This document shows positions 23,867 through 59,525 of a stretch of DNA of 64,000 bases, piece after piece. Source of the DNA: Spizellomyces punctatus DAOM BR117 (taxonomy: Eukaryota). The first letter of the stretch is position 1, and every line of letters starts with the position of its first letter. A program made the translations under genes and the position numbers. The notes below the pieces were generated by a model. That model was not told the DNA's origin, ran no database searches, and saw only the letters and a program-made list of their open reading frames with translations. The stretch lies in NCBI GenBank assembly GCA_000182565.2, contig KQ257472.1. One strand, 5' to 3'.

Positions 23867-23897
23867 GGTGGTAATGGGGTGGAGTCTTGGGTAGTTA

Positions 23898-25015: not shown

Positions 25016-28000
25016 TGAGGCCAGCGTGGATGGCGGTGATGAGTGCAGGCTGTAATGCCAAATGAAATATGGCCTCTGCCAGTGTTGAGGAGGGTGCAGG
25101 ACTGGCTGGTGGGGTGCACAGCCGTCATCTTCTGCATTCCGACACCCATATTTTGGTCACGGTAAAGCAAAGAAGTGTTTCCGTGCCAAGTAGCCACAAA
25201 AGTGTATCAGCGATGATGTGGAAGCATCCTGGTTTGTGAATGATTGTCATCCATTCGGACCAGTAACTAAGATCGAGGGCCCAGCGGAGGAGCTTTCGGT
25301 TCTCGCCTTTGTATTTGGCAAGCCACAAAAGAGCTCGGTGATCAGTAATGACTGTGAAAGGCAGGCCTTCGAGGTATGGGCAGAGTTTTCCGAGGCCCCA
25401 AATGAGGCATCCGGCCTCGAGTTCGACAGGGGGGGCCTTCTTTTCCAAGGTGGTGGTGCCTCGGGAATGGTAGCACAGCGGGCATTTAGAAGCATCCAGC
25501 TGTAACTGTTCGAGCATGACATTAAATGCTGTGTAGGAAGTGTCACTGTGAAGGGTGTAGGGGAACCCTTTTCTGGGTGCCGCAAGCACTGGAGCTGTTG
25601 TCAGCGCCTGCTTGGCAGCTGTGAAGGCAGAGTTTTGGGAGTCAGTCCATGAAACTTCACACTTTGCGACAAATCTGCACAGACCTTGGTTGGGGTGCTT
25701 GCGAGCAAGGTATCCGACACAAAAGGGGTCAATGGGCAAGTCGGCCAGCAATGATTGGCATAGATTGACTGCTGGTAGGTCTGAGGAGCTAGATTTAGGA
25801 TGTTGCGAAACCTCAAATCGGGCTCCGGTTGCTGTGATTGATGGGGCCACTGCTGTGTCAAGCATGGACAGTGAATTGAGCTTTTCAGTGCCTTTCTTTG
25901 GGTCAGCGTGACCCTTTTTAAGGTCTCGGTATTCACAAATGCCCTCTTGGATAGCATCTTGCAGGGGTCGGATGAGTTCCACGTAGCGAGGGATGAATTG
26001 GGCATAGAACCCCAGAAGACCCACGAAGGACCATAGGTTGCCAATGAATTTGGGTCGTGGCCAATTGACTATGGTTGCAACCTTGTCTGGATTGGTAGCG
26101 AGGCCCTGGGAAGAGGCAACGAAACCGAGGGCCATGAGCTGGTGAAAGAGCCATTGACACTTGTCGAGTCTTAGGGTGAGTTTGGCCCTGGAAAAGCAGT
26201 TGAGCCAGTCCGCAATGGCATCTAGGGCTTCCATAGCTGTCTCCGCTTGTGTATGGATATTGTCGATGAAGTTGTTGATATTTCGCCATTTGGAGGGACC
26301 CAAGGTGTCATCCATCACCCAACAGAAGTGCGAGGGGGCAGTCTTGGGTCTGAAGGGCATGAAAGGTGGTTCGTAGATGCCATTGTGGAGTCTGATTGCG
26401 GGCCATTTGCGTACTGACATATCAGTGATGGCGATTTGGTAAAATCCTTTGTTTGCATCACCTCCTGATATGTATCGGAATGGGACTGCAACGATCCAGT
26501 TCAGGATGTCGAGCATGATGGGAAAGGGATATGGATCCCAGGCCATGCAGTCATTGGCTCAGCAATAGTCAAAGGCTACCCGCGGGGGTTTGTCTGTGTA
26601 GCAAATAATAACAGGATCGCTGGCAAAGGTTACTTTGGTGGTTCGTTTCCACCTCTGAAGCCCCATCATGGTGTCTTGCTCTGTCTCGAGGGCTGTCCGC
26701 TCCAACGGAGAGTACGACCGTGGCCTCAAAAGGGGTGGCAGAGCCAAGATAAATTGAGGTGCATAAGGAATCTTGGTGTAGTTCCCTATGAGATGACCCT
26801 CATAGCTGAAGGCTTGATGGAAGTGTCGTAGAATGTTGATTAGGGCCCAGACCATGGGTTTGGGTCATTTGAGATCGACGTGGAAATGTTCCGCGTCTTT
26901 TAATTGGGCTTCAAAGGCCCCTGGAGCCTTCTCTGTAGAGTTGAGGTTCCATTTGTTCCGAAGTGTCTGCCATTCTTCTTCGGAAATGTTCTCTTCGGGG
27001 TCCGCGACCGAATTATGGGTCGCGGTGGACAGTTTGAGGCCTAACGGGGCCGTTGTGCTAGCAGCAGTGGCCTCAAGAGGGTTTTTGATGAGAAAAGTTT
27101 GGGCTGCCATGCGCATCTGTCCTGTGATTAACATGGTTAATCTAGACTTCTGAGCTTTGGCTTTGGTCAGCCATGGCATTGACACATCCTTCATGAATTC
27201 ACCCTGCTTGGTCTTGTATGGTGTGCTGTGCATGTGATCAGTGTCCAGCTCATCTGTTATGAAGCAAGGGATAAGGATGTCCAGATTCTTGAGTGTCACT
27301 GTGAAACTGGGTAACAGGGGTTCCTGAACCAAGATTTGGAGTTTCAAATGTCCCAGAACATTGTTGGCTAGGATGATGAGAGGTTTCCCATATGCAATGA
27401 CTCAGAAATAGGTGCGGAAAGTCAGGTATTCTCCTCTGCAGCCTCTGAGGGAAGTTTCGAGGTATACTGTCTTGGTAGATGAGATACATCCACCAATGCC
27501 GTTGAAAGCCATCATTTCCGCATCCTGCAAATCGGTTTCGGAGAACAGAAGGCCCTGGTATGTGTCAGAAATCAGAGACTCGCAGGCTCCTGTGTCTAGT
27601 ACCACAGGTGCCCAGAGCTGAGCAATGATGGCTAGTGTCCAGCAAGGCTGCGTTTGGGTCTTGGTCTGGCTTTTGAGTACATCGCCTAAATCTACCATGT
27701 AGAAGGCATTGATAGAAGGCACCGCGACCTCGAAATGGGGCGCGATGTCGTTAATTGTTGCTTCCATAGCCTTGATCAAACTCTCAAAGTGTTCTCTAGG
27801 TTTGTCATTTTGTGGTTTTGTTGGTTTATTCTGGCAAGCAACTTGTTCAATAGCCAGCATGACTATATGCATCCATTCACTCTCTTCGTGTCTTTGGAGA
27901 CATGGATGGTCTTTAATGTGCAGGAATTTGGGGTTTCCACAACGATAATAATAGTCTGAGTGAATGATATTGCCTGTCAGGAGAAATGCCACCAGTTGCA

Positions 28001-30623
28001 GGTTGGCATAAGAATCAAAGATAACAGGATCTTCAGAGCTCCACATCAAGAATTTCTCATGCTCATCGAGCCTTATCCAGGCAAGGAGGATCAAACGAGG
28101 GGTACCATCTTCTCGGACCTTTCGCAGGATTCGATCCTTGTTAGCTTCAGCTGTGGCAGTGATGTAGAGGTGGTGGGAACTCCATGCAACTGCATAGGGG
28201 TTGTTCCCGAGGTGCCTGGTGCCTCGCTTCGGTTCTTTGGCAAAGAAGCTGAGCACACGGGGGTTGTTGCCCATCATCAGAGCCACTTGCAGGGTGCCCC
28301 AGATGATGGCTATTTTGTCCCAGACTCGGTCCCAGCCCTGTGTGGGCATGCAGGGGTCCTCTTCCTTAGTCTCTGTGACCTCGGAAAGAGGTGCGGTCAT
28401 CAAAATTGTTGATTCCAAGTGCTTGGGTGAATGAAAGAATCCGATGGTGTGGAATCCTTGATTAGCGGCGGCTGTCCTTTCCAGTTCCAAAGCCAAAAAA
28501 AGAGTCTCAGTGGTAGCGGACGTCAAGTCCAGCTCCACTATGTAAGACTTCTTGGACTCCTGTTTGGGTTTCCAACCTGCGGGCATGGGTTCTCCATATG
28601 GTCCCTTCTTTCCATCTTCAGGATCTTTTCGGTTCGGGTTCTGCCAGCAGAAAACATTCCAATGCTTTTTCTGACAGAATTTGCAGGGTGCCAGTGGTTC
28701 CTTGTTGGGGTCCAGAACCATCTTCTGAAGACCATTGTGACCCTTTTCGGGGTTTCTGGTTTTATGTTGAGCCGTCTGCTTAGGGCCTTTGTTGGTTCTG
28801 GTCTTTTGTGACTTCTTCTGAGCTTCTGTGGCACCGCTGTAGCAAGGGTCTCATTTTCTGGTGTCATCAGAGCTGAAATAAAGGCACAGGAAGTCTTTTA
28901 ATTTGGTCAGGTTCATGATGTTACAGGATTTGACCATGATTTGGATGTCGCTGGGCAATTGTTCGACTATTAGGTCGAAATGCTGGTCAGCGGGACATTC
29001 TATGTTTGCCCAGTCACCATATGTGAGGTGCCGGAGATGAGTTTTGTGGTCAATGAATGCAAGAAAGCTGCGAAATTCTTTGGGGTTCACATGGCAGTGC
29101 ACATATTCAGTTTTGCACTTGGACTCAGTTAGGGGGTCTCGGAACTCTCGAAGCAGTTCTTCCTTCCACCTTTTCCAGGTCCATGAGCGAGTTTCCTGGG
29201 CTTCCAGAGTGTAAAACCAAGCATTGGCAGGGGTTTTCTCGGCTATCATGGCTGGCAGGAGCTGTACCATCCTGGCATCCAATGTTGTGCTAACATTTTG
29301 AAGAAGTTGGACTTTGTTAAGCCATTCTTCAATGCCTTGGTTTCTTCGACCCATAAACTTGGGTATGTCCTTTGCTTTCAAGGAATTGACCTTGGTGTCA
29401 CTGGCCCACGGGGCTGCTGGCACTTGGATTGGAGGCACCACACCTGAAAAACTTGGTTTGGTATGCTCCCTTGGTGTGTCCGCCATTTCCCACCGCGTTG
29501 CGGACCATTCTCTTGTAGCTCATGCTATGGGAGGTTGTTCAGGCAGCGGGTGATGCACTAGGGCTTCTAAGGCTCGTGCGAGGTGCTCATCCGCTGCTGT
29601 CTGACATTTGGAAAGCCTATGAAGCTGTTCCGTAAGGTTTTGAGTTGCCAACTGCATTGCAGCAGTCGAGTGGGCAATGTCTTCTTTTAACGCTGCCACT
29701 TCAGAGGCCATCATGGCCAAGCGAGGGGCTTCCGGCTCAGCGGAAGCGGTCCCTGAACACCTTGGGCATGTTGCGGGAGGGACTTTGACGTCCTCCGCAG
29801 GACCCTGACTACAAGTATGGATCACAGGTGAGCGGCCTTGCGTTGGTGAGCGTTTGACTGGCATCATTCTCAGTTTCGTGAAGTTCTGTCTCTGAAACAA
29901 GAGAAAAAGTTTCTGAGTAGCTACCTGAGTGGATCTCGGTTTGTGCAAGAGTTTCGGTATGACCGAATAAGGTTTTCAGCTGAATTTGAGAGGGGAAGGC
30001 AGTTCGTCGTGCTTCTCCACCATGTAATGGATTTTTTGTAGGTAGACTATGGTAAAGACAACTTGGGTCTCCTAGCAGGTTATGGGGGTGGCCGTACTAG
30101 GAATCATAGTCTCCAAATCCTTTCTTTGGGTGTCGGGAGCGAATTGGGGGCAATAGGCAAGGAGAGTCAGTTAGTTGTGAACTGAGCAGGATTTAGAGGC
30201 TTCAGTGCAGGTGATCAGGCCATTGAAGCGCTCTGTTAGGTTCCTGGTAACCTAAGATTGGAGTTGAGAAGCTAGTTGTGGGGATTTAGTGTCGCTACAG
30301 CTTCTGCCTGCATCTTGTTTCTATTGAATACATCCTTTTTATACAAGATTCTTGGATAAACTGTTAAACTAAACTAAACTAATGGGTACCGCTGCACCGC
30401 AACTGATTTATTGGTGGCGGTACCGATCTCTTCCTTTTCTGCACTGGCTCGGGCCTCCACAGGTTGTACGAGGCATGCTGAAATCTAATGCACCAATTGC
30501 CATTCTCCGAACCGGTTTTTTCAGTCACGGTAACCCAATCGGTGGAGTTGGTCACGCGATTCATGCTTCCTGCATCCGATTTGGGCTTACTGGCGATCTC
30601 TCAAAGATGACCTCATTGTTACA
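25016..30623 (-). mobile_element. Gypsy-C degraded, 3'-truncated copy (5' LTR 30023-30623, gag to RNase H)
   Basis: Colinear with 41658-47264 at offset 16,642, with many CG>TG/CA changes and stops. Integrase and 3' LTR are missing at the Gypsy-B junction. Confidence 0.93.
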
Positions 30624-30625
30624 GG

Positions 30626-35000: not shown

Positions 35001-37918
35001 CGAGCTGTTGATGAAGCTCCTCTAACTCATTGGTACTCATATGTTGTAAGGGGTATGTGAGTGGTTTAGCTCCACGAAGGAGTTCAATGCTAAAGTTGTC
35101 TTCCCCTCAATCTGGGGGGAACTTGCCATTCTCAGTAAAAAGCGTGTTGTTGTATTTATTGAGTGTAACCTTAAGGAATCCTGTGCACCCATTATCAGCT
35201 GCATCAAAGTCTTCTTTTCTTTTCTTGCCTTTTGCATAGAGCCTTGCTGCATGGAAACTCATGTAGCGATCATCGACTCCCTCTGGTTGGATCCTCCATG
35301 CTGTCAGGTATCTGTTATGTTTGATACCTTTGTCAGATTGCTTGGAGGAGCATTCATTCCATGTCATCTTGGGTTGAATAAACCGTGAGGGAGGTTTGCC
35401 GAATCCTCTCAGATGGGCGGCATGATATGAGGCAGTGGCTTCCCATGCTCTGCTGGTCCATTGCACCTCAATGTTATGGCTCATGTTGTTAAAGTTAAAC
35501 CATAGGGTTGGTCATTGTGCTGTTCAATTGTTGGAGACTTGCTTAAGGAGTTTTAATAGAGGTAACCCTATCACTGCATCAATGCCAATATTTGCTACAA
35601 CAAAAGGGATCTTTCCAAGGTTTATGAATCCTCAAGGTTGCAAATTGGACAAGAGTAGTGAAGAGGTTATCATCAAGTTCGATAGGCTCTGAGATCCTTC
35701 TTTGCCCCATTTTATCTGAAGGGGTTGCTCTGGAGCATACTGTTTGAAATGATGTCGGGTTGTGAACTTCTTGTTGATAAGGTAGCTTGTACATCCAGTG
35801 TCAAATAATATTCTAGCAAACTTATTGCCAATACATCCATGGATAATGAAGGGCTCCTCAATCTCAGGATTTTTGATCTTGGTGTCATTGCAACATAACA
35901 GTTCTTCCTTCTGGTCCTGATCTGGTAGTCATGGTACAATGGCCTCATGCATGTGTACCATAGCCACTGAAGGGATCAGGGCAGTCAGCGGCTTTACTAA
36001 AAATCCTCCATTTGTTCATCCTCAAAGATTTCTTCAATTGAGGATGGTTCCTCTTGCTCTGCCCAGGTGGGCTCATTGACCTCCATGGTCTGGTACTCAA
36101 TTGGAGGATGTTCAGTCATCATTGAGTGAACCTGGGATTGGGACATTCTGACCCCACATCCCCTTCCTGGTCCTGTACCTCTGGTAGAGGGTTGTCTGGA
36201 TTCACAAGGAATTCCTCGACCTTGTGGCACCTGCATGGGGTACGGGGCAGCTTGTACTGGAGCAGATGGGCATTGGCAAGCATAATGCCCTCTTCCTCCA
36301 CAGTTATTGCAGACAATGCCAGAGCTTGCTCTCATTACTGGCCAAGTGGCACCTCGGGTTACTGTGGATGTCATGCGGCCATGAAAGGATCCTCGTCCAC
36401 AGGTGGACAGGCAACTTGGTGTTGTTGAGGATGGTGTGGGCATGCTGATTTGATCAATGAGTCCCTGATCATTATATGCCATATGAAGGCTCTGCTGCAG
36501 GGGGACCAATACATCTTCTTCATCATTCATTAGTGACAACATTGTTTTCATCAAGATGAGATGATTGTATAATGCTTCCCCTACTCTGCGGTTTTGGCGG
36601 ATGCCCTCCATATAATATCACAGAATGTCAGCATCCGGTATTCTAGGTCGGCCTGTAAGTCAATGGCCTGAGATATCTTCTCCCACAAGGGCGTTAAAGG
36701 CCTGGGTGTACTCCATGACACTCTGGCCCATGGTTAAGTTCCGGAACTGCTGGTGGAGATTATTTCAAGAGTCACGGGGGATGAACCTGTGAACAAAGGT
36801 GGTTTCCAGCTCCTCGAGAGTATTGGCATAATGGTTGAAGCTAGTCCAGTTGTGCCACCAATCTAAAGCTGGACCCATGAGATAGGTTTGGATATGTGCC
36901 TCCACATCCGATCTTCTTCCTTCATTAGTGTGTGCAACACAAAGGTAGCTCCTATGGGCTCCTAGGAACTCTTCTAGTTGACAAGCATCTGGCGTGCCAT
37001 TGTACATATGCAACCATGCCCTGAGTGTGCTGAGCATTGCATTAATCGTCATTTCTTGCTGGTGCTCAATGCGGCAGGCAGCTGCAGCATTGGCCGCAGC
37101 TTGTTGCATGATCATGTTCCCGAATGCTTGCTGTTGCGCTAGGTTGGTGAGGGTTACCAGGAGCCTGTCTAGATGACCAGCACCTGGAGGGATTGGCAGC
37201 TGTGGTGGGGGTGGCATCGGTGCCGGCCCTGGTTCTTGCGGCGGCTGGTTGTTCCCCGGTACAGCCTCGAATTGGAAGACTGGGTCCTCTCCCTCTTCCT
37301 CGACAGTGATGAACGGGTGATTGTCTTTGGACATTTCGGATCGTTCACGGGGCTCTGGGCTGAAGGTAGAAGCTTCTGAGTTTCTATCAGAGGCGAATGG
37401 GTCAAAGACAATAGAGGGTCAAATGTCTTCCGATTCCGTAGCGTGTGTGGTAGTCTCAGGTGGTGCTACCATGTAATGTCAATCAACCAGATTGCTCTAG
37501 TCAATGTTTTCTTGCAAATCATTGGGCCCTGCAGGAGGGCTGTATAAAGACTTTGTTGTTAATACAAGAGAAAGGGAACTATTGATAGTTCCTCAAGTTG
37601 CTAACTAGGCTAGTTGTTCTTCTAGTTTTTTCCTTACTTCCCTTTTTGAGGGACTTTAGAGCAGTGCTCTTTTTATGCTTGCTCCCTCCTTTGGCAGGGC
37701 ATCGGCCTGAGGTTTCCCACCTCTGCCAGTGTGGTCCCTCTTGCAGCAATCAGAAGTGATTGGCACTAGCAAATAAAGGGACAAATAATCCTCTAACTAT
37801 GGGGCCGCTGTGGAACTGAATGACTTTGACAGGTCATCAGCATGGCGGGGCTTACATAATCTAACTACTGTTACATGCTGCGCCATACTTTGGCCATACA
37901 TGGCTACATGATCACTAT
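32044..37918 (-). mobile_element. Gypsy-D degenerate Ty3/gypsy element (partial 5' LTR 37472-37918, PBS 37459-37471)
   Basis: Fragments: gag 36765-37334, knuckle CNNCGGRGHYACQC, protease ILFDTGC (~35,800), RT 34447-34941 (YLDNILVFS), RNase H FTDSSG, integrase 32768-33480. Many stops and frameshifts; no same-orientation 3' LTR found. Confidence 0.88.
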
Positions 37919-38373
37919 CCCTATGCCTCCAGTCCTGCTCTGGCTTTGATAGCATGTCCTGCACTATCCTAGGAAGTGTTTCTGTGGCCCTAGCTGGCTG
38001 GGTTTGGGTCCTCTGTCCCAAAACTTCCTGAATATTGTGCAGAAACTCTCTTCTGAACATCCTCATCTTGTCCTTGAACTCCAAAAAGGACTCCTGAGTG
38101 AGGTACTGGGGCTCCTCCTGAGCTTCCAGGTAACTACTGAAGTTGTTTTCCTGAGCTTGTTGAGCTTCCCTTCTGGCTTGCTCTTCAATCTTCTCAAACT
38201 GACCAGAAAGAGACATCTTTCTCTTTCCTTTTTGTGCTGGTGTTCTGTCCAGGGGCATCATTTGCTTCTGGTTTCAGTACACTGCTCAGTAGTTTGTATT
38301 TACATTGTTCTCAGCTGTCTGACAGGCAATCAGGGCTCATAACCTGTTGGGAAAGTCAAGAAATAGGTGTTAT
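37919..38373 (-). mobile_element. Copia-E 5' fragment: gag N-terminus, half-tRNA PBS 38331-38344, LTR 3' end 38345-38373
   Basis: ...CCCAACA|GGTTATGAGCCCTG on the minus strand, followed by an ORF starting at 38261. Sequence unrelated to Copia-A. Confidence 0.7.
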
Positions 38374-41300
38374 TGTAGCGGATTTTTTGTTGGTAGACTA
38401 CGGTAAAGACGACTTGGGTCTCCTAGCAGGTTATGGGGGTGGCCGTACTAGGAATCATAGTCTCCGAATCCTTTCTTTGGGCATCGGTAGCAACTTGGGG
38501 GCGAGAGGCAAGGAGAGTCGGTTAGTTGTGAACCGAGCAGGATTTAGAGGCTTCGGTACGGGTGATCAGGCCGTTGAAGCGCTCTGTTAGGTTCCTGTTA
38601 ACCTAAGATTGGAGTTGAGAAGCGAGTTATGGGGATTTTGTGTCACTACGGCTTCTGCCCCCGACTTATTTTATTGAATACATCCTTTTTATACAAGATT
38701 CTTGGATAAACTGTTAAACTAAACTAAACTAATGGGTGTCGCTGCACCGCAACTGATTTATTGGTGGCGGTACCGATCTCTTCCTTTTCCACACTGGCTC
38801 GGGCCTCCACAGGTTGTACGAGGCACGCTGAAATCTAATGCACCAATTGCCATTCTCTGAACTGGTTTTTTCGGTCGCGGTAACTCAATCGGTGGAGTTG
38901 GTCACGCGATTCGTGCTTCCCGCGTCCGATTTGGGCTTACTCGTGATCTCTCGAAGACGTCCTCATCGTTACATCCCCCCTTTGAAGAGCCAATGCACCG
39001 GCGCTCCGAGCGGGGGTGTTGGGACGTCAATTACCAGGTTGGTACCGGATCTGTGGGGTCCGCTTCATCTGCATCTTGGTTCACGACCCAGATGATACTG
39101 GCACGGCCACCGACGTTGCAACAAAACCAGATTTGATCTGTTGCGGTACAAACGATGGTACCCGGGGTCACGTCGGGGCCAGTTCTGGTTACGTAGAGGG
39201 CCGTAAAGGTCTCCGCGGCCCTTTTCAGGTTTGTCGCGCGGAAATGGTACTCCGCGTGCTCGTGATGTCGGGGTCTGGTGAGCCTTGCAGAGGCTTCCGC
39301 TGCATTCGCCGTCCTTAGGAGCACCGTCCTAGCTGCTTCAATGATGGCAGACGCAAACTCGTGGGCATCATCGTTCGGCCAATCGGTGAACGGAGCCATT
39401 TTTCGGCTTCCCGCCTCGTGTTGGGGAACCCCGCAGTCGAGCCAAGCGGCGCACGGAGCTGGGCGCCCTCTTTTTCCGGGTTTTTTCGTGTCGGCAACTA
39501 TTCCGACTGCTGCTTCACCACCATCGGTGGCCTTGCTGTAGGGGTCCGCGATGTGGTTTGTGAGGGGCTGGCCCACCGCGTAAGGTTTCGGAGCGTCGAC
39601 TCCCAGCCAAAACTCATGCCCTGGAGTCTGCAGCGGCGCGTTGGGGTTGGTCCGAAGCTGATGAACCCAGGAGTGAACCCAGGTAGCGATCGCAACCCCA
39701 AGGTGATCCAGCACGCCCTCGGCCTCGAAGTTGCCCGAGTCTTCCTCCCAAGGGTAGCCGGACATGTACGTGGAGGGTATGCTCACTCCTGCTTGTCCTC
39801 TGAGATCGGTGTTCATTGTGTTAGAAATGGAAGTTTTAGTTTCGGTGTCGATAGAAGGGGTTTGCGAAGCAGAGTGAGTGTGTAAGGGAAGTAGGTCATG
39901 GGCGGTTGAAGAAGAAAAAAGAGGGGGAGCGTGCAGGGGCGTCCTTTTAAGGTCGTCGCCGGCTGATTTTGACAGCTCGGACGTGCGTAAGCGTGATCGG
40001 GAGGCTTGGTGTGGCGTTCTCGACTGGTGAGGTAAGCCACGCGAAACTGGTTTTCTTTCTGGTGAGAGGGCGTGATTATCACGTGAGCTATCATCCGGAT
40101 AAACTGCGAAGCATTGGTGGTCAGAAGCATAAGCCGTATCTTCCGGGGCGTCGCCTGCAAGGCTGACTACCAAAGAGTCCTCTACTAGCGCGCTAGTGGG
40201 AGCTCTGGATCTCCAGTACTCTTCTAAGGCTTCGGAAGCCTCTGTTAGGGCTTCCTCTGGTTCCCAGGTATCCTCATGGGGTGGGTATCCGGACCAACGT
40301 ATTTGAAATTGACGTTTTCTGTGCCTGGTTCGATGGTCTACTATCGCTTCCACTTCAAACTCGCCATCTGAAGCGTTGGAATCCTCCGCTTGTGCTTCCG
40401 CGACCTTTTCCTCAGTTTCGGCGTCGACAGGCTTCTGGTATGGATGTAATTTCGATATGTGAAACCATGGATGAAGTCGTCTCATCTTGTCTGGCAGTTT
40501 TAACTTGTAGTTGTCACGGAGAGGGTTACAGTCGGTCACCGTGACTGGTCCCAGCCATTTCGGAGCGATCTTGGACTCATACCCTGCTAGGTTTTTCGTA
40601 CTCAGAAGCACCTTATCTCCTCTCCGGAACTCCAAATGTCGTCGCGATAAATCGTAATATCTTTTCTGCAAATCCTGGGCTTTGATCATCAGATCTCGGA
40701 TAAGGATGTTTAGGTCGCCGAGGTGTTTACAGAGCTCTTCCGCATCTGCATTTCTGGTTTCTGACGGCCTTTCGACGATGTCCGCCAGTGGATTGTGGGG
40801 CTCATAGCCTAGGTCCATTCTGAATCGTGTCATTTTTGTCGCCTCGTGTACCGTATCGTTGATAATGAATTCCGCAACCGGAAGAAAGGTGTCCCAGTCG
40901 TCTAATCGGGTGTTGACCATTGTGGTAAGGACCTGCAAGACCGTTGCGTTGTCTCTTTCTGATTGTCCATCACCTTGAGGGTGGTAGGCTGTGGTGAGCT
41001 CTTGATTAATCTTTAGGTTTTTGCAGACCTCCTGCCAAAATCGACTCGTAAATTTGGAGTCGCGGTCCAAGATAATGGTCTCCGGGATGCCGTGCAATGG
41101 GACGTAGTGCTCTATAAAGAGTTCTGCGACCTGAATAGCTGTCACAGTGCTCTTGAGGGGCCATACGTGGATCCTCTTTGAGCATTTACATGCTATTAAC
41201 CAAAAGGCGTCGTACCCTCTGGAAGTAAGTGGGAGCTTGGTTACGAAGTCAGTTGTGATGACTGTCCAGCGTCCCGGAGCTGGTGGTATGGGTTTCAGCA

Positions 41301-44300
41301 ACCCCGGAATCAGTTGCGGTACCCTTTTTGAGCGTTGACAGGTTTCACATCCTGCGCAGTGTTTTCTGAAATCTTGTGCCATTTTCGGCCACCAGACTTG
41401 CGCTGCAGCTCTAGCGTAGGTTCTTTTGAATCGGAAGTGTCCTCCCCCCTCGTGAAAAAGCTTGCGCACCTCAGGGGTGCAAGCAGGGGGCACGTAAAGG
41501 CGCCAAAGGTCTTCGGAGACTGAAAAACGGTGCCACAGCAGGTTATCTGCACGTTGCCAGTCCTGAAGAAAGCGTGTGTCGGCGGTAGTGTACGTGTTGG
41601 GGCTGGTCTCCTATAGAAGGGTGCGGGCCTGTTGGGTGATGGGGTGGAGCGGGCCGGTGAGGCCAGCGCGGATGGCGGTGATGAGTGCGGGCTGTAAGGC
41701 CAAACAAAAGATGGCATCTGCCAGTGTTGAGGAGGGTGCGGGACCGGCTGGCGGGGTGCGCGGCCGTCATCCTTTGTGTTCCGACACCCATATTTCGGTC
41801 GCGGTAGAGCAAAGAAGAGTTTCCGCGCCAAGTAGCCGCGAAAGTGTATCAGCGACTATGTGGAAGCGTCCTGGTTTGTGTACAATTGTCATCCATTCGG
41901 ACCAGTAACTAAGATCGAGGGCCCAGCAGAGGAGCTTTCGGTTCTCACCTTTGTATTTGGCGAGCCACAAAAGAGCTCGGTGATCGGTAATGACCGTGAA
42001 AGGCAGGCCTTCGAGGTATGGGCGGAGTTTTCCGAGGCCCCAAATGAGGCATCCGGCCTTGAGTTCGACAGGTGGGGCCTTCTTTTCCGAGGTGGTGGTG
42101 CCTCGGGAATGGTAGCACAGCGGGTGTTTAGAAGCATCCGGCTGTAACTGTTCGAGCATGACATTAAACGCTGTGTAGGAAGCGTCACTGTGAAGGGTGT
42201 AGGGGAACCCTTTTCTGGGTGCCGCAAGCACTGGAGCTGTTGTCAGAGCCTGCTTGGCGGCTGCGAAGGCAGAGTTTCGGGAGTCGGTCCATGAAACTTC
42301 ACGCTTCGCGACGAATCTGCGCAGACCTTGGTCGGGGCGCTTGCGAGCAAGGCGTCCGACACAAAAGGGGTCAATGGGCAAGTCGGCCAGCGATGATTGG
42401 CATAGATTGACCGCCAGTAGGTCTGAGGAGCTAGATTTAAGATGTTGCGAAACCTCAAATCGGGCTCCGGTTGCTGTGATTGTTGGGGCCACTGCCGTGT
42501 CAAGCATGGACGGTGAATTGAGCTTTTCAGCTCCTTTCCTTGGGTCAGCGCGACCCTTTTTAAGGTCTCGGTATTCACGAACGCCCTCTTGGATAGCGTC
42601 TTGCAGGGGTCGGACGAGTTCCGCGTAGCGAGGGATGAATTGGGCATAGAACCCAAGGAGACCCATGAAGGACCATAGGTCACCAATAAATTTAGGTCGT
42701 GGCCAATCGACTATGGTTGCGACCTTGTCTGGATCGGTAGCGAGGCCCTGGGAAGAGGCAACGAAACCGAGGGCCGTGAGCTGGTGAAAGAGCCATTGAC
42801 ACTTGTCGAGTCTTAGGGTGAGTTTGGCCCTGGAAAAGTGGTCGAGCCAGTCCGCGATGGCATCTAGGGCTTCCGCAGCTGTCTCCGCTCGTGTATGGAT
42901 ATCGTCGATGAAGTTGTTGATATTTCGCCATTTGGAGGGACCCAAGGTGTCGTCCATCACCCGACAGAAGTGCGAGGGGGCAGTCTTGGGTCCGAAGGGC
43001 ATGAAAAGTGGTTCGTAGATGCCATCGTGGAGTCTGATCGCGAGCCATTTGCGTACCGACGTATCAGTGATGGCAATTTGGTAAAATCCTTTGTTTGCGT
43101 CACCTCCTGATATGTATCGGAATGGGACTGCGACGATCCAGTTCAGGATGTCGAGCATGATGGGAAAGGGATATGGATCCCAGGCCATGCAGTCATTGGC
43201 TCGGCGATAGTCGAAGGCTACCCGCGGGGGTTTGTCTGCGTAGCGAATAATAACAGGATCGCTGGCGAAGGTTACTTCGGTGGTTTGTTTCCACCTCTGA
43301 AGCCCCATCATGGTGTCTCGCTCCGTCTCGAGGGCTGTCCGCTCCAACGGAGAGTACGACCGTGGCCTCGAAAGGGGTGGTGGAGCTGAGATAAATTGAG
43401 GTGCATAAGGAATCTTGGTGTAGTTCCCTATGAGATGACCCTCATAGCTGAAGGCTTGATGGAAGTGTCATAGAATGTTGATTAGGGCCCAGACCATGGG
43501 TTTGGGTCATTTGAGATCGACGTGGAAATGTTCCGCGTCTTTTAATTGGGCTTCAAAGGCCCCTGGAGCCTTCTCTGTAGAGTTGAGGTTCCATTTGTTC
43601 CGAAGTGTCTGCCATTCTTCTTCGGAAATGTTCTCTTCGGGGTCCGCGACCGAATTATGGGTCGCGGTGGACAGTTTGAGGCCTAACGGGGCCGTTGTGC
43701 TAGCAGCAGTGGCCTCAAGAGGGTTTTTGATGAGAAAAGTTTGGGCTGCCATGCGCATCTGTCCTGTGATTAACATGGTTAATCTAGACTTCTGAGCTTT
43801 GGCTTTGGTCAGCCATGGCATTGACACATCCTTCATGAATTCACCCTGCTTGGTCTTGTATGGTGTGCTGTGCATGTGATCAGTGTCCAGCTCATCTGTT
43901 ATGAAGCAAGGGATAAGGATGTCCAGATTCTTGAGTGTCACTGCGAAACTGGGTAACAGGGGTTCCTGAACCAAGATTTGGAGTTTCAAATGTCCCAGAA
44001 CATTGTTGGCTAGGATGATGAGAGGTTTCCCATATGCAATGACTCAGAAATAGGTGCGGAAAGTCAGGTATTCTCCTCTGCAGCCTCTGAGGGAAGTTTC
44101 GAGGTATACTGTCTTGGTAGATGAGATACATCCACCAATGCCGTTGAAAGCCATCATTTCCACATCCTGCAAATCGGTTTCGGAGAACAGAAGGCCCTGG
44201 TATGTGTCAGAAATCAGAGACTCGCAGGCTCCTGTGTCTAGTACCACAGGTGCCCAGAGCTGAGCAATGATGGCTAGTGTCCAGCAAGGCTGCGTTTGGG

Positions 44301-47264
44301 TCTTGGTCTGGCTTTTGAGTACATCGCCTAAATCTACCATGTAGAAGGCATTGATAGAAGGCACCGCGACCTCGAAATGGGGCGCGATGTCGTTAATTGT
44401 TGCTTCCATAGCCTTGATCAAACTCTCAAAGTGTTCTCTAGGTTTGTCATTTTGTGGTTTTGTTGGTTTATTCTGGCAAGCAACTTGTTCAATAGCCAGC
44501 ATGACTATATGCATCCATTCACTCTCTTCGTGTCTTTGGAGACATGGATGGTCTTTAATGTGCAGGAATTTGGGGTTTCCACAACGATAATAATAGTCTG
44601 AGTGAATGATATTGCCTGTCAGGAGAAATGCCACCAGTTGCAGGTTGGCATAAGAATCAAAGATAACAGGATCTTCAGAGCTCCACATCAAGAATTTCTC
44701 GTGCTCATCGAGCCTTATCCAGGCAAGGAGGATCAAACGAGGGGTACCATCTTCTCAGACCTTTCGCAGGATTCGATCCTTGTTAGCTTCAGCTGTGGCA
44801 GTGATGTAGAGGTGGTGGGAACTCCATGCGACTGCATAGGGGTTGTTCCCGAGGTGCCTGGTGCCTCGCTTCGGTTCTTTGGCAAAGAAGCTGAGCACAC
44901 GGGGGTTGTTGCCCATCATCAGAGCCACTTGCAGGGTGCCCCAGATGATGGCTATTTTGTCCCAGACTCGGTCCCAGCCCTGTGTGGGCATGCAGGGGTC
45001 CTCTTCCTTAGTCTCTGTGACCTCGGAAAGAGGTGCGGTCATCAAAATTGTTGATTCCAAGTGCTTGGGTGAATGAAAGAATCCAATGGTGTGGAATCCT
45101 TGATTAGCGGCGGCTGTCCTTTCCAGTTCCAAAGCCAAAAAAAGAGTCTCAGTGGTAGCGGACGTCAAGTCCAGCTCCACTATGTAAGACTTCTTGGACT
45201 CCTGTTTGGGTTTCCAACCTGCGGGCATGGGTTCTCCATATGGTCCCTTCTTTCCATCTTCAGGATCTTTTCGGTTCGGGTTCTGCCAGCAGAAAACATT
45301 CCAATGCTTTTTCTGACAGAATTTGCAGGGTGCCAGTGGTTCCTTGTTGGGGTCCAGAACCATCTTCTGAAGACCATTGTGACCCTTTTCGGGGTTTCTG
45401 GTTTTATGTTGAGCCATCTGCTTAGGGCCTTTGTTGGTTCTGGTCTTTTGTGACTTCTTCTGAGCTTCTGTGGCACCGCTGTAGCAAGGGTCTCATTTTC
45501 TGGTGTCATCAGAGCTGAAATAAAGGCACAGGAAGTCTTTTAATTTGGTCAGGTTCATGATGTTACAGGATTTGACCATGATTTGGATGTCGCTGGGCAA
45601 TTGTTCGACTATTAGGTCGAAATGCTGGTCAGCGGGACATTCTATGTTTGCCCAGTCACCATATGTGAGGTGCCGGAGATGAGTTTTGTGGTCAATGAAT
45701 GCAAGAAAGCTGCGAAATTCTTTGGGGTTCACATGGCAGTGCACATATTCAGTTTTGCACTTGGACTCAGTTAGGGGGTCTCGGAACTCTCGAAGCAGTT
45801 CTTCCTTCCACCTTTTCCAGGTCCATGAGCGAGTTTCCTGGGCTTCCAGAGTGTAAAACCAAGCGTCAGCAGGGGTTTTCTCGGCTATCATGGCTGGTAG
45901 GAGCTGTACCATCCTGGCATCCGACGTTGCGCTAACGTTTTGAAGAAGTTGGACTTTGTTAAGCCATTCTTCAACGTCTTGGTTTCTTCTGCCCATAAAC
46001 TCGGGTACGTCCTTTGCTTTCAAGGAATCGACCTTGGTGTCGCTGGCCCACGGGGCCGCTGGCACTTGGATTGGAGGCACCGCACCTGAAAAACTTGGTT
46101 CGGTATGCTCCCTTGGTGTGTCCGCCGTTTCCCACGGGGTTGCGGACCGTTCTCTTGTAGCTCGTGCTATGGGAGGTTGTTCAGGCAGCGGGCAATGCGC
46201 TAGGGCTTCTAAGGCTCGTGCGAGGCGCTCATCCGCCGCTGTCTGACGTTCGGAAAGCCTATGAAGCTGTTCCGTAAGGTTTTGAGTTGCCAACTGCGTT
46301 GCAGCAGTCGAGCGGGCAATGTCTTCTTTTAACGCTGCCACTTCAGAGGCCATCGTGGCCAAGTTAGGGGCTTCCGGTTCGACGGAAGTGGTCCCTGAAC
46401 GCCTTGGGCGTGTTGCGGGAGGGACTTTGACGTCCTCCGCAGGACCCTGACTACGAGTCTGGATCACAGGTGAGCGGCCTCGCATTGGTGAGCGTTCGAC
46501 CGGCATCATTCTCGGTTTCGTGAAGTTCTGTCTCCGAAACGAGAGAAAAGGTTTCTGAGTAGCTACCTGAGCGGATCTCGGTTTGCGCAAGAGTTTCGGT
46601 ATGACCGAATAAGGTTTTCAGCTGAATTTGAGAGGGGAAGGCGGTTCGTCGCGCTTCTCCACCATGTAGCGGATTTTTTGTTGGTAGACTACGGTAAAGA
46701 TGACTTGGGTCTCCTAGCAGGTTATGGGGGTGGCCGTACTAGGAATCATAGTCTCCGAATCCTTTCTTTGGGCGTCGGTAGCAACTTGGGGGTGAGAGGC
46801 AAGGAGAGTCGGTTAGTTGTGAACCGAGCAGGATTTAGAGGCTTTGGTACGGGTGATCAGGCCGTTGAAGCGCTCTGTTAGGTTCCTGTTAACCTAAGAT
46901 TGGAGTTGAGAAGCGAGTTATGGGGATTTTGTGTTGCTACGGCTTCTGCCCCCGACTTATTTTATTGAATACATCCTTTTTATACAAGATTCTTGGATAA
47001 ACTGTTAAACTAAACTAAACTAATGGGTGTCGCTGCACCGCAACTGATTTATTGGTGGCGGTACCGATCTCTTCCTTTTCCGCACTGGCTCGGGCCTCCA
47101 CAGGTTGTATGAGGCATGCTGAAATCTAATGCGCCAATTGCCATTCTCCGAACCGGTTTTTTCGGTCGCGGTAACTCAATCGGTGGAGTTGGTCACGCGA
47201 TTCGTGCTTCCCGCGTCCGATTTGGGCTTACTCGCGATCTCTCGAAGACATCCTCGTCATTACA
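38374..47264 (-). mobile_element. Gypsy-C full-length chromodomain Ty3/gypsy element (8.9 kb) with 4-bp TSD TTAT
   Basis: 600-bp TG..CA LTRs 38374-38973 and 46665-47264, PPT at ~38974-38984, PBS TGGTGGAGAAGCGC (46651-46664, tRNA-Ala-like), TTAT at 38370-38373 and 47265-47268. Confidence 0.95.
39031..46509 (-). pseudogene. Gypsy-C single-frame Gag-Pol (~2,490 codons) broken by seven in-frame stops
   Basis: ORFs 45493-46590, 44755-45417, 44044-44736, 43507-43989, 41767-43347 and 39031-41493 share one frame. Motifs CKFCQKKHWNVFC, VLDTGA, FIDDIH, HSDAS, GHF..CETCQ, KWLGP and a chromodomain. Confidence 0.9.
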
Positions 47265-47617
47265 TTATCCTACAACTAGACTGGGTGCACCTGAGAGGTG
47301 GATAGCTGTGTTAGAAGCTGTGCCATCACTAGAGAATGTCTCTGGGGGCTTTGTGTCAAAAGAGCAGTGAAATAGTTGTATTACAGAAAGAAAAATGGGG
47401 GTCCTAAATACAGTACAGATCACATGATGACAACCTGACTTCAACCTCTAATTTTGGGATAAAGCAACTAACTAAGAAAGTGTTTTGCCAAGCCTGTAGC
47501 ACAGATTCAGGGCTTTCTAAAACCATCTTGGTCTTGTCAATAAGTTAATAACTCACTAAGTTATTCAAGTTACCATCCCATGGCAACTTTGATGAAATCA
47601 ATCAATTAATTCCAACA
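47265..47617 (-). repeat. Remainder of the Copia-E LTR split by the Gypsy-C insertion
   Basis: Rejoining across the TTAT duplication gives a ~378-bp TGTTGG...CCAACA unit. Confidence 0.65.
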
Positions 47618-47963
47618 CATGACAGTCCAGTAGCCACTATCTTCTTAATATATAATTTATATATATTTATAAAAATTATAAGAATAGGGTGAAAGATCCT
47701 TTTCAAGAACCTCACAGTATACCTGACCAGTTAATCTGTTAGCAATCACAGGTAGCAGACCTCTAAGCCACTTAACCGCTATGCCATGTGGGTGCATCTT
47801 CACTGCACCACACGCGTCACTAGATTTCTTTTGCATTGCTAGCTAGTACATTCATTAGTGACTTCTTAACATACAATAGACTTACATCTATACAAGAGTA
47901 GAGTTCACTCTGTTCCTACTCTCTATCACTAATGCATTCCTTATAGGAATATACCCTCACTAG

Positions 47964-48803
47964 CTAACATAATCCTCCATCTAAAGTAACTAAAGGGTCA
48001 GTTCCACTTCCACACTGCCCAATTACACCCCAAACTATTATATATATACACATACCCCTCATCCCAATGCTGCACTTGGGGAATACAGTTTTCTCACAAA
48101 TATCTGTTATATTCACCAGGCTCATACCCAACTCATATTCTTTAAAGATAGTAAATAATCTATTACTAAAATAAGGATTTTTCCATTGTTGTACTATCCA
48201 GTTACATTTTTCCATGCACCAAGCCCTCCTTTTATCTGCAAAGGCCAAGCTTGTATACAGTAAATAGCAGAGTGTTGTAATGGAGCATAACTTGAAAATT
48301 TAACTCAAGCTCATATTGGAGTTGTTACAGGGCTATTTACTATTTTTAACAACTGATTTAACTGTATCCAACTGCTCAGGTGTACACTTGCTCAGAGGAC
48401 CAGGTTGTTTTTGGGGTATTGTGCAACCAGTAGATTTCCACCTCAAAATTGTGTCAATAACCATAGGTTGAGGAATATCCAGGGTTCTGGCAATATGTCT
48501 GTTGCTACATTTGGATCGGTGAGCTCCAATAATTTGCCATCTGATTTCGTTCGATAGTTCTGATGTTTTGTGGTTTGGCATCGTGTGCGATCGCGAGAAT
48601 TTAGGAGGCCCTGCGTCGTCATTCTTTGATTCATCAGATTCGAGATGAATATAGTCTCTGATGTTGAAAGCACCATCATCAGAGTTAGATTCAGCTGGTG
48701 GAGGACCCCAGTAAATCTCATCAGTTGTGGTGTTGGTTTTGTCTGTCGACATTTCGAGAGAGATGCTGGGCGACCAGTGCAGTAGCAAGCAAGGGGGATG
48801 CAA
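47964..48803 (-). pseudogene. Degenerate Tc1/mariner-like transposase
   Basis: Paired-like HTH (ELSNEIRWQII...SNRHIARTLDIP...TILRWKSTG...PGP) then KRRAWC...WIVQQWKNPYFSN, resembling the Tc1 W..V.FSDE region. TIRs not resolved. Confidence 0.7.
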
Positions 48804-48951
48804 TGCTCATCACGTCATCAGTAATTCAGAGTCATATGACGCACGTGGTTGCAACCTGGGTGATTAACAGGATGTCAAACCAGCTCGCGTTGACTTCAAG
48901 TGACTGCTCGTAGTTGATGGTGGATCTAAATCCATAAACTTCCTCCATACC

Positions 48952-51900: not shown

Positions 51901-53075
51901 GATTGATTTTGACTTCACGTTTGAAAAGCGGAATGACGGGAAAATGGTGAGGTTGTGGGTTGCTGGACAACTTTACTATTCCTGGCAGCTCTGAATTTAT
52001 GAATCCATTGTGAAGATTGATGAGCTGGGTGGTGCAATTGCCAATTTTTGTAATGTGACTCCAGGGGGAGTCGTCTGTTTCTTCGCCTCTTACGACTATC
52101 TCGAAGTGGTCTATAATCGATGGCAAATGGGACGAATTCTTTCTAGAATTAGTAGTAAGAAACAGGTATGAACAACATTATAAACGATTGGAGACTGCTT
52201 CATGATGTCATGCTGGCAAACTGATTTGTATCGCAGGTGTTCAAAGAGCCGAAGCAGAGTGTCCTGGTTGATACGACCTTGACGGCGTATGCGCAATGCA
52301 TCCGAAATACTAGCAATCGGCAGGTAAGAAACATTTGTATTCTTATATGTCGGGATGTTATGACTAATCGTATACGTTCAGGGGCACACGGGTGCCATTC
52401 TCTTTGCGGTCGTTGGAGGTAAAATGAGTGAAGGAATAAAGTAAGCGTTTGAGCCATAGAGCTGTTCTTCCGGTACAGTGTATTAACTAGCCCCAGCTTT
52501 TCAGATGATTTGGGAAGGTAATGTCATTGGCGATCTGCAAACGTCTGCTTGCATGTGGCGCACAAACTCAACATGGCCGGAAATAATTTTAGACTGGTCA
52601 TTATGGTTGGTTTACCGTTTCCCAACATCCGTTCCCAGGAGTTGAAGGAGAAATTGAATTACGTTAAAGCTCGTGCTTCATTACGGGGTTTAGACGGCGC
52701 GGTAGCCAATGATTACTATGAAAACCTGTGTATGAAAGCTGTAAATCAGTCTATTGGTAAGCTGAAACCCGAACCACGGTTCACTCTTCGACTGATGCTG
52801 ATTGAGGATTTGCGGCAGGCCGCGCGATTCGCCATAGGGATGACTATGCGGCGATCGTGCTATTAGATTACCGCTACGGACAGCAGCGCATAAAGCAGAA
52901 ATTACCTGGGTGGATTAGAGACGCGGGAATAAGTGAGCCTGGTGGATTTGGGAGGGCGATTGCAGAGATTTCCAAGGTATTGCGGCGGTGCGCCCGACCA
53001 ATTATTAGCTCTAATCTCATTGTGCAATATTTGCAGTTTTTCCGCGGTATAAAAAGCCAGGGTGCTAGTCTTTGA
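48952..53075 (+). CDS. CHL1: ATP-dependent Fe-S DNA helicase Chl1/DDX11 (multi-exon)
   Basis: [10 protein letters not shown]-motif, [24 protein letters not shown], Fe-S cysteines (CIN, KCLDL, CPY, CPYF), [48 protein letters not shown]. Short GT-AG introns. Confidence 0.95.
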
Positions 53076-53664
53076 CGCGTTTCCTTGAATTCAGGATTCA
53101 TGCATGTTAGGGAAGACGAGGCTAGACTGGCTTGCAGCACTGTAGCTGGCTTCAGTGATCGCAGGGAATTTTAGCCATAGATTCATCAATAGTACTAGTG
53201 TTAGACGTGCAGCCATTATCTTCTTTCACCCAATTCACTGAGCAATTGACCATGTTTTTATAGCAAGCATGGGAGTCTTATGATAGATTGAATTGCAAAA
53301 ATTCTGGAGCTCCTTACTTGTTATACACCACCCTTTTCACTGGCAACCGGAAACCGAAGAACACAGCTCTGCGCTCTGGATCGATTGCATCTGGATTGAA
53401 GACAAGTATTTAGATATCGGCCATCCGCTCTGGAGTGTGTTGCTATTTTAACTCCACAGATGGTTGCGGTCGTTGACGTCGTCTACACGGTTGAAGAGCG
53501 CTTGACAGAATCTGTAAACTCGGTAAAAACAAGGTTGCTCAACTTTAGCACGTGATTAATTAATTTCGGAACCCAACGCAAGTTTTGCAGAAAAGTTTTT
53601 CTGCATATTTTTTTTTGCCTTAGGACGACAACCCTCTTTTTATTACCACTAACGTAACCTCACC

Positions 53665-57603: not shown

Positions 57604-57739
57604 TTTCAATCGCTTGAAGCCCAGCCCTCGCGATCTGATACCAGGCGAGCTTGCAGTGGTCGCCAGTCGGTTTGAACCGGATCGTAAGTTGTGGTCCAGT
57701 GAGGTAACAAACAACACGATACGCAAGTCGCTGTTTGCT

Positions 57740-59485: not shown

Positions 59486-59525
59486 ACCTATCAGGATAAC
59501 ACTCCACACTGGCTTGCATCTGTCG

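What the first reader, a model, noticed from the sequence alone, without database searches (positions are those of the whole stretch)
38374..47264. CpG-exclusive hypermutation of repeats: every Gypsy-C LTR difference is a CpG transition
Seen: comparing the two 600-bp LTRs by eye gives 16 mismatches, all CG>TG or CG>CA, in all 5' contexts (ACG, GCG, TCG, CCG; one site hit on opposite strands). I see no other substitutions or indels, and the TSD is intact. Six of seven premature stops in the ORF are TGA; two of them (44755, 43468) are CGA in the sister copy. Established: LTRs are identical at insertion; ascomycete RIP favours CpA, a RIP-like process in Pucciniomycotina favours TCG, and 5mC deaminates to T. 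Inference: a young insertion was hit rapidly by a CpG-directed, repeat-targeted mutator, either dense methylation plus deamination or a RIP-like system, in an apparently early-diverging fungus.
Basis: partly seen in the sequence, partly recalled or inferred. Interest (0 to 1): 0.8.

Follow-up and report, generated by a model that had tools for sequence, protein, structure and literature searches.

The report
CpG-only decay of a chytrid retrotransposon
A young Gypsy retrotransposon in the chytrid fungus Spizellomyces punctatus has changed only at CpG sites since it inserted, which is best explained by DNA methylation of transposons followed by loss of the methylated cytosines, a known process seen here in unusually pure form.

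Summary
The two 600-bp LTRs (38374-38973, 46665-47264) differ at 16 positions. All 16 are CpG transitions, at 15 of 45 ancestral CpG sites, with no other substitution and no indel. The TSD TTAT is intact. Chance of this under uniform mutation is 6e-14.

The host is Spizellomyces punctatus: a host ORF is 100% identical to a named protein of that species. A 2025 paper states that 5mC is confined to transposons in this species.

Repeats in the window have CpG o/e of 0.00-0.5, while the genic DNA has 0.93. I found no strand clustering, no TCG or CpA preference, and almost no CG>TA double hits. This favours CpG methylation plus deamination over a RIP-like system.

The CpG to non-CpG rate ratio is above 28 from the LTRs alone and above 70 with a second young comparison. 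The human value is about 17, and residual CpGs of neighbouring Copia copies give about 20. This is high, but it does not require an active mutator.

Three of the seven stops lie in a 2.5-kb tract imported from an already decayed copy.

Side finding: two neighbouring retrotransposon lineages keep long ORFs yet are nearly or wholly CpG-free.

The parts
38370..38373 (.). Target-site duplication TTAT, left copy
   Evidence: Same four bases as 47265-47268
38374..38973 (-). LTR of Gypsy-C copy Y (the 3' LTR in element orientation), TG..CA ends, 37 CpG left of 45
   Evidence: 8 CpG sites are lost here relative to the other LTR
38974..38983 (-). Polypurine tract next to the 3' LTR (minus strand reads AAAGGGGGGA)
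39031..41610 (-). Open 859-aa frame with integrase zinc finger, integrase core, SH3 and chromodomain. CpG o/e is 0.94
   Evidence: Pfam matches; composition. Public contigs show CpG-type changes of Y here too: 8 of the 8 shown rows between 38994 and 39984
41767..43467 (-). Reverse transcriptase and RNase H segment of the same frame, bounded by TGA stops
   Evidence: Pfam matches; stops
43389..45864 (-). Tract shared almost identically with sister copy S and CpG-poor in both (o/e about 0.25-0.6 in 400-bp bins). Imported from an already decayed copy. Holds 5 of the 7 stops
   Evidence: 8 differences, all CpG-type, and 0 non-CpG in 2476 bp with 68 CpG sites; stops
45493..46617 (-). N-terminal (gag-side) part of the frame, with no significant Pfam match
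46652..46664 (-). Primer-binding-site-like motif next to the 5' LTR (minus strand starts TGG)
46665..47264 (-). LTR of Y (the 5' LTR in element orientation), 37 CpG left of 45
47265..47268 (.). Target-site duplication TTAT, right copy
25016..30623 (-). Sister copy S of the same family, truncated, 95.8% identical to Y 41658-47264, with its LTR at 30023-30623. It has lost 145 CpG sites against 32 in Y

Best explanation
Copy Y is a young Ty3/Gypsy chromovirus in a transposon island of the chytrid Spizellomyces punctatus. Since insertion it has changed almost only by C>T transitions at CpG, on both strands. The most likely cause is symmetric CpG methylation targeted to transposons. The methylated cytosine then deaminates to thymine, and the resulting T:G mismatches are poorly repaired, against a low background mutation rate. 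Once one strand of a CpG is hit the site is no longer CpG, so the partner cytosine is spared.

Shown here: the spectrum, its restriction to repeats in this window, the lack of strand clustering and of a trinucleotide preference, and a gradient of decay across elements.

Taken from the literature: 5mC on transposons in this species.

Inferred: that methylation is the cause; that deamination is spontaneous rather than enzyme-driven; and that the methyltransferase is of the maintenance type.
For: (1) Spectrum. All 16 LTR differences are CpG transitions. Between Y and S there are 177 CpG-type events against 57 other differences. In the young shared tract, 8 of 8 differences are CpG-type.

(2) Restriction to repeats. 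CpG o/e is 0.00-0.5 across 1-37000, with TpG and CpA in excess. It is 0.93 in the genic part 49500-64000. The borders of Y are sharp, going from about 0.2 outside to about 1.0 inside.

(3) Both strands are hit equally and without runs. S has 65 C>T and 80 G>A, with 83 runs against 72.8 expected (P for fewer = 0.97). Y has 14 and 18, with 17 runs against 16.7 expected (P = 0.61).

(4) Strict CpG dependence. CG>TA was seen once, against 129 single-step losses in S. By my arithmetic, independent hits on both strands would give about two dozen.

(5) No TCG preference. The share mutated by 5' base is A 37 of 71, C 37 of 123, G 38 of 102 and T 55 of 161.

(6) Species and literature. A host ORF is 100% identical to SPPG_08564 of S. 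punctatus DAOM BR117. [quoted passage not shown]

(7) Independent public contigs carry CG where Y has TG or CA. In run X1 the places by kind of change are A>G 127 and T>C 111, against C>T 21 and G>A 34, with 48 transversions. Of the 40 rows shown out of 515, 28 are of this type, 2 are the reverse, 5 are other transitions and 5 are transversions.

(8) Long-term pressure. The neighbouring Copia and Gypsy-A lineages keep long ORFs but have purged CpG.
Against: No methylation was measured at this locus, and the paper's statement covers the whole genome. No genome is held, so I could not check for DNMT1, DNMT5, Dim-2, RID or the T:G repair genes. The papers I could read do not give the species' DNMT set, and Fig. 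4a and the supplements of PMC12695648 were not visible.

The rate ratio in Y is high. It is above 27.6 (one-sided 95%) from the LTRs and above 70 with the tract. The human value is about 17, and the residual CpGs of the Copia duplication arms give 19.9 (13.2-29.7). Getting 16 of 16 at a ratio of 19.9 has P = 0.018, and jointly with the tract P = 1.2e-4. The process is therefore not uniform, and a faster, possibly enzyme-driven component on CpG-rich newcomers is not excluded.

The 5' base shows a weak bias towards ACG (chi-square P = 0.018).

All repeats in the window lie in one island. Targeting of repeats therefore cannot be separated from targeting of a chromatin domain.
Confidence: 0.74

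Rival explanations
1. An active, repeat-directed CpG mutator. This could be a RIP-like system, or a cytosine methyltransferase that itself catalyses deamination. It would strike newly duplicated CpG-rich DNA in bursts.
For: The ratio in the two youngest comparisons (16 of 16 and 8 of 8 CpG-type) is significantly above that of the older Copia arms (joint P = 1.2e-4 at a ratio of 19.9). That is what a burst soon after duplication would give. Methyltransferase-dependent C>T in transposons during mitosis is documented in Zymoseptoria (abstract of PMC8016269). RID-type enzymes are reported outside Ascomycota, in the arbuscular mycorrhizal clade (passage of PMC8298701).
Against: There are no strand runs. 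There is no CpA or TCG preference. The 7-kb inverted Copia arms are 98.6% alike and would be ideal RIP substrates, yet they decay at a human-like ratio. Decay is graded across elements rather than all-or-none. Heterogeneity can also arise if fast, densely methylated sites are lost first. From recall, not from a call: no sexual cycle is known for this species.
Confidence: 0.15
2. Editing of the retrotransposon cDNA by an AID/APOBEC-like deaminase during reverse transcription, leaving differences between the two LTRs at birth.
For: Only the general fact that cDNA editing can hit retroelements. No call supports it here.
Against: Such editing acts on one strand. Here each LTR carries both kinds of change: LTR at 38374 has 3 C>T and 5 G>A, and LTR at 46665 has 6 C>T and 2 G>A. 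The same spectrum is seen between old copies and in a segmental duplication that did not pass through cDNA.
Confidence: 0.02
3. Assembly or base-calling artefact at methylated CpGs, so that some CG>TG or CG>CA differences are consensus errors.
For: From recall, not from a call: methylated motifs can cause systematic errors in long-read consensus. The sequencing technology of this assembly is not known to me.
Against: The decay is coherent over tens of kilobases, with matching TpG and CpA excess. It creates stops shared by two copies. In public run X3, small depths of 2.5-3.7 remain with Y's own letters at the LTR-specific sites 38483 and 38645, beside family depths of 53-175. This is weak support if that run is not the source of the assembly.
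Confidence: 0.04

Closest known systems
CpG decay of methylated transposons by 5mC deamination (vertebrate repeats; Agaricomycotina transposons in Horns et al. 2012, PMC3318451)
   Same: Transitions are concentrated at CpG on both strands. Decay is confined to methylated repeats, TpG and CpA are in excess, and no trinucleotide rule applies. Horns et al. attribute the CpG excess in Agaricomycotina to passive deamination (passages).
   Different: The host is a chytrid, a group usually described as 6mA-rich and 5mC-poor (review passages). The spectrum is purer: 24 of 24 young differences are CpG-type, and the ratio is above 28-70 against about 17 in humans.
Repeat-induced point mutation of Neurospora and other Pezizomycotina
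   Same: Repeats are inactivated by C>T transitions and nonsense codons accumulate.
   Different: RIP prefers CpA and this process does not touch CpA: the CA produced by a hit is not hit again. No strand runs are seen. Dependence on duplication and on a sexual phase could not be tested.
TpCpG hypermutation of Pucciniomycotina (Horns et al. 2012)
   Same: CpG-containing target, and it acts in transposons.
   Different: No preference for T before the CpG. The share mutated is T 34% against A 52%, C 30% and G 37%.
Dim2-dependent mitotic C>T in transposons of Zymoseptoria tritici (Moller et al. 2021, PMC8016269, abstract read)
   Same: Methyltransferase-linked mutation of transposons without a need for sex. 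It is a model for how methylation itself can drive decay.
   Different: The target there is CpA and the enzyme is Dim2. Here the target is CpG and the enzyme is unknown.
Ty3/Gypsy chromoviruses
   Same: 600-bp TG..CA LTRs, a 4-bp TSD, PBS and PPT, RT-RNaseH-integrase order, and a C-terminal chromodomain.
   Different: Nothing unusual in the anatomy. The nearest proteins outside Spizellomyces are only 38% identical or less.

Membership tests
5mC-deamination decay of methylated repeats | Substitutions are transitions at CpG, on both strands | tested here: met
   All 16 LTR differences. 177 CpG-type events against 57 others between Y and S. C>T and G>A are near equal
5mC-deamination decay of methylated repeats | Confined to the methylated compartment; unique DNA keeps its CpG | tested here: met
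   CpG o/e is 0.93 in 49500-64000 against 0.00-0.5 in the repeats of 1-37000. This covers one window only
5mC-deamination decay of methylated repeats | The sequences carry 5mC | not testable with these tools
   No methylation data can be laid on the window. PMC12695648 section 9 states that 5mC is confined to transposons in Spizellomyces
5mC-deamination decay of methylated repeats | A CpG-capable cytosine methyltransferase is encoded | not testable with these tools
   No genome is held. Literature searches gave no repertoire for this species
5mC-deamination decay of methylated repeats | After one hit the site is no longer a target, so CG>TA is rare | tested here: met
   1 CG>TA against 129 single-step losses in S
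5mC-deamination decay of methylated repeats | Rate ratio within the range known for passive decay | tested here: inconclusive
   Copia arms give 19.9 (13.2-29.7). Y gives above 27.6, or above 70 with the tract. The human value is about 17
RIP (Pezizomycotina type) | Preference for CpA | tested here: not met
   Non-CpG transitions number only 30 in 5.6 kb, and CA products are not hit again
RIP (Pezizomycotina type) | Mutations of one event lie on one strand, giving runs | tested here: not met
   Runs test gives P = 0.61 for Y and 0.97 for S. Many superimposed rounds could blur runs
RIP (Pezizomycotina type) | RID-type enzyme; dependence on duplication and a premeiotic phase | not testable with these tools
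   No genome is held
Pucciniomycotina TpCpG hypermutation | Excess at TCG over VCG | tested here: not met
   T 55 of 161 mutated, against A 37 of 71, C 37 of 123 and G 38 of 102
Ty3/Gypsy chromovirus | LTRs, TSD, PBS and PPT; RT-RNaseH-integrase order; chromodomain | tested here: met

The most novel reading that the evidence does not exclude
In this chytrid, CpG methylation works as a mutagenic genome defence on a par with RIP. It destroys a CpG-rich newcomer before any other substitution accumulates, at a rate more than 28-70 times background, possibly helped by enzyme-catalysed deamination. It has also driven resident retrotransposon lineages to purge CpG altogether while keeping long ORFs. 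Gypsy-A has 2 CpG in 6.6 kb and 94 of its 95 Arg codons are AGR. This would be an arms race in which transposons escape by becoming invisible to CpG methylation.
Probability: 0.2. Interest if true: 0.7.

Novelty: new member of a known kind. Interest (0 to 1): 0.4.

Why it matters
Early-diverging fungi are usually presented as 6mA-rich genomes in which 5mC is marginal (review passages). This window suggests that the small transposon-bound 5mC fraction reported for S. punctatus has strong evolutionary effects. It appears to inactivate a CpG-rich retrotransposon almost purely through CpG transitions. It also appears to have shaped the coding sequence of resident elements.

The case gives a clean in-genome estimate of the CpG to non-CpG rate ratio in a fungus outside Dikarya. 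S. punctatus is described as genetically transformable in the title of a paper cited by PMC12695648 (reference list). That makes it a possible system for asking whether the methyltransferase itself is mutagenic. My searches for chytrid together with CpG depletion found only the 2025 6mA paper and its preprint, and that paper treats CpG depletion only at whole-genome level. I therefore found no printed description of this transposon-level decay in chytrids.

Tried and rejected
- **Whole genome:** none is held. Genome-wide LTR pairs and a search for DNMT, RID or repair genes were therefore impossible.
- **Earlier findings of the scan:** none.
- **Atlas search with a host WD40 ORF:** it gave only generic WD40 clusters and no usable taxon.
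- **Protein search with Gypsy-A pol:** the best hit was 63% identical and unnamed, and no S. punctatus copy was listed. It says nothing about copy number.
- **DNMT repertoire in the literature:** not found in any text I could read. Two papers were not held.
- **Strand-run test for processive events:** negative.
- **Copia LTR pairs as independent clocks:** rejected. The two elements are mirror copies within one inverted segmental duplication, so I used the duplication arms instead.
- **Gypsy-A LTR divergence as a clock for the age of S:** rejected. Gypsy-A has Copia sequence on its left and Gypsy-C sequence on its right, so it is not a simple nested insertion.
- **Depth in the public contigs:** not used as a copy number, as the tool warns against it.

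Full report
**What is there.** Window 38374-47264 is a complete LTR retrotransposon on the minus strand, which I call Y.
- Its LTRs are 600 bp with TG..CA ends, at 38374-38973 and 46665-47264.
- It has a 4-bp target-site duplication, TTAT. On the minus strand a TGG-initial primer-binding motif sits next to the 5' LTR and a polypurine tract next to the 3' LTR.
- One minus-strand frame runs from 46617 to 39031. It carries reverse transcriptase, RNase H, the integrase zinc finger and core, an SH3 domain and a chromodomain. Y is therefore a Ty3/Gypsy chromovirus.
- A truncated sister copy, S, lies at 25016-30623. It is 95.8% identical to Y 41658-47264.

**The observation.**
- The LTRs differ at 16 positions with no indel. 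Fourteen are CG against TG or CA. The remaining two are one CpG hit on opposite strands.
- Each LTR lost 8 of 45 ancestral CpGs.
- The sister LTR carries the unmutated letter at 13 of the 16 positions and shows parallel hits at the other 3.
- The chance that 16 uniform substitutions all fall on the 90 CpG bases of 601 compared is 6.4e-14.
- Six of the seven premature stops are TGA. At 44755 and 43468 copy S reads CGA.

**Host.**
- The integrase frame is 95% identical to a protein named for Spizellomyces punctatus DAOM BR117.
- A host ORF at 53918-54547 is 100% identical to SPPG_08564 of that strain, and the next hit is another chytrid at 53%.

**Landscape of the window.**
- CpG o/e is 0.13-0.27 over 1-18000, 0.00-0.03 over 18001-24000, 0.3-0.5 in S and 0.2-0.3 over 30600-38373.
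- It is about 0.9-1.1 in most of Y and 0.93 in the genic part 49500-64000.
- TpG and CpA are in excess wherever CpG is low.
- The borders of Y are sharp: Y inserted into older CpG-poor DNA.
- The CpG bias is absent from the unique DNA in this window.

**Spectrum in larger samples.**
- Between Y and S there are 145 single and 16 double CpG-type sites (177 events), against 30 other transitions and 27 transversions.
- S is the mutated copy at 145 sites and Y at 32.
- Public contigs laid on Y show the same polarity. In run X1 the places where the contigs read G for Y's A number 127, and C for Y's T 111. The reverse directions number 34 and 21, and transversions 48.
- Of the 40 rows shown out of 515, 28 are Y TG or CA against CG elsewhere. 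Two are the reverse, 5 are other transitions and 5 are transversions.
- Eight of the shown rows lie in 38994-39984, a part of Y with no partner in the window, and all eight are CpG-type. Y has therefore decayed along its whole length.

- From 43389 to 45864, Y and S differ at only 8 positions, all CpG-type. There is no non-CpG difference anywhere between 43043 and 45898.
- In this tract both copies are CpG-poor, at about 0.25-0.6. Outside it Y is near 1.0 while S stays near 0.35-0.7.
- The simplest reading is that Y acquired this tract from S, or from a twin of S, after that copy had decayed. The route would be template switching at reverse transcription or later gene conversion. This is inference.
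- Five of Y's seven stops lie in the tract. Three of them (45493, 44044, 43507) are shared with S and so were imported. Two (44755, 43468) arose in Y afterwards.
- The TGA at 41767 is shared with S outside the tract and may be a parallel hit. The TAG at 41611 lies outside the part covered by S.

**Tests that separate the mechanisms.**
1. *Strand runs.* Hits on the two strands are interleaved at random: 17 runs against 16.7 expected in Y, and 83 against 72.8 in S. Single-strand processive events would give few runs.
2. *Context.* There is no TCG preference and only a weak excess at ACG (chi-square P = 0.018).
3. *Second strand.* CG>TA occurs once against 129 single-step losses in S. If both cytosines were hit independently at the frequency seen in S, about two dozen would be expected (my arithmetic). 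The target is therefore the CpG itself, and a CA product is not a target. This excludes a Neurospora-like CpA preference.

These four points fit maintenance-type CpG methylation followed by deamination.

**How fast.** I treat each difference as CpG-type with probability R*Nc/(R*Nc+N0), where Nc and N0 are the numbers of CpG and non-CpG bases compared.
- The LTR pair gives R above 27.6 (one-sided 95%). Adding the tract gives R above 70.
- For comparison, CpG transitions in humans are about 17-fold faster than other types (passage of bioRxiv 10.1101/091579).
- The two arms of an inverted segmental duplication of Copia DNA (239-7041 against 10604-17990) provide a second in-window clock. They show 37 CpG-type events against 62 others, giving R = 19.9 (13.2-29.7).
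- At R = 19.9 the LTR result has P = 0.018, and the LTR and tract results together have P = 1.2e-4.
- CpGs of the CpG-rich newcomer therefore decay several times faster, relative to background, than the residual CpGs of a CpG-poor element.
- Two readings remain. Dense methylation of CpG-rich DNA, with fast sites lost first, explains this without a new system. A burst-like active component would explain it too. The data cannot decide.
- From recall, not from a call: the chemical deamination rate of 5mC in double-stranded DNA is orders of magnitude above realised mutation rates. Weak T:G repair alone could therefore give such ratios.

**RNA.**
- In RNA run X22, about 6% of which was read, reads pile up on the LTR at a depth of about 390. 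The internal region has depths of 0-6.
- At six sites where the LTR at 38374 carries its own mutated letter, 98.7-99.6% of RNA reads carry the unmutated letter; for example 217 of 219 at 38483 and 392 of 394 at 38791.
- Y itself therefore contributes at most about 1% of this RNA. That fits silencing but does not prove it.

**Side finding.**
- *Copia.* The Copia copies keep ORFs of 1350 and 1253 aa with a full gag-pol domain set, at CpG o/e 0.17-0.20. Their Arg codons are 11-12 CGN against 50-54 AGR.
- *Gypsy-A.* Gypsy-A (18368-25015) has 2 CpGs in 6648 bp. Its pol of 601 + 657 aa is broken by one stop. Its Arg codons are 0 CGN against 76 AGR in pol, and 1 against 18 in gag.
- *Why this is not post-insertion decay.* Decay after insertion would turn CGN into Cys, Trp, His, Gln or stop codons, not into AGR. 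These lineages were therefore CpG-poor while still under selection.
- *Contrast with Y.* In Y, CGN Arg codons number 32 against 28 AGR in the integrase frame, and 31 against 8 in the RT-RNase H segment.
- *Reading.* This points to long-standing CpG-directed pressure on resident elements. It also suggests that Gypsy-C is either a more recent or a faster-cycling lineage. This is inference.

**Verdict.** The best explanation is transposon-targeted CpG methylation plus deamination, a known kind of process, here in a chytrid and in unusually pure form. A RIP-like or enzyme-driven component is not needed but is not excluded. I could not see supplements or figures of the cited papers. The DNMT table of PMC12695648 (Fig. 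4a) in particular may bear on the enzyme question.

Noticed in passing
window 18368-25015: A second Gypsy chromovirus (Gypsy-A) is virtually CpG-free, with 2 CpG in 6648 bp (o/e 0.005). Its pol of 601 + 657 aa is broken by a single stop. Its Arg codons are 1 CGN against 94 AGR (pol and gag together). This cannot come from decay after insertion, so the lineage itself had purged CpG.
   Followed up: partly
window 239-7041 and 10604-17990: Ty1/Copia DNA forms a large inverted segmental duplication with arms about 98.6% alike. It has ORFs of 1350 aa (2346-6398, minus) and 1253 aa (11538-15299, plus), at CpG o/e 0.17-0.20. The CpG to non-CpG ratio between the arms is 19.9.
   Followed up: partly
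window 43389-45864 and 26747-29222 approx.: Mosaic structure. Y and S are near-identical and equally CpG-poor in this tract but diverge on both sides, which points to recombination or gene conversion between a young and an old copy.
   Followed up: yes
window 38374-38927: RNA reads cover the LTR at a depth of about 390. First mates lie on the plus strand in 38374-38650 and on the minus strand in 38651-38927. Poly-T loose ends sit before 38636, which suggests a poly(A) site of minus-strand transcripts. The internal region is almost bare. The transcripts on the other strand are unexplained.
   Followed up: no
window 18508-18657 and 24605-24814: A 60-bp tandem repeat inside the Gypsy-A LTRs differs in copy number between the two LTRs.
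   Followed up: no
window 31009-31462 and 37472-37924: A 455-bp inverted repeat, 91% alike, brackets an integrase remnant at 32768-33433. Among its differences are 8 TG<->CA double sites, the mark of CpGs lost independently on opposite strands.
   Followed up: no
window 47266-48806: Y's right flank is CpG-poor (o/e 0.0-0.2). It contains a fragment with a Tc1/mariner-type HTH domain at 48333-48806, so Y inserted into an older decayed transposon.
   Followed up: no
window 53918-54547: A host gene encodes an Amidoligase_2 protein. After two chytrid hits (100% and 53%), its relatives are metagenomic or bacterial at 27-38% identity. This distribution could reflect an old gene transfer.
   Followed up: no
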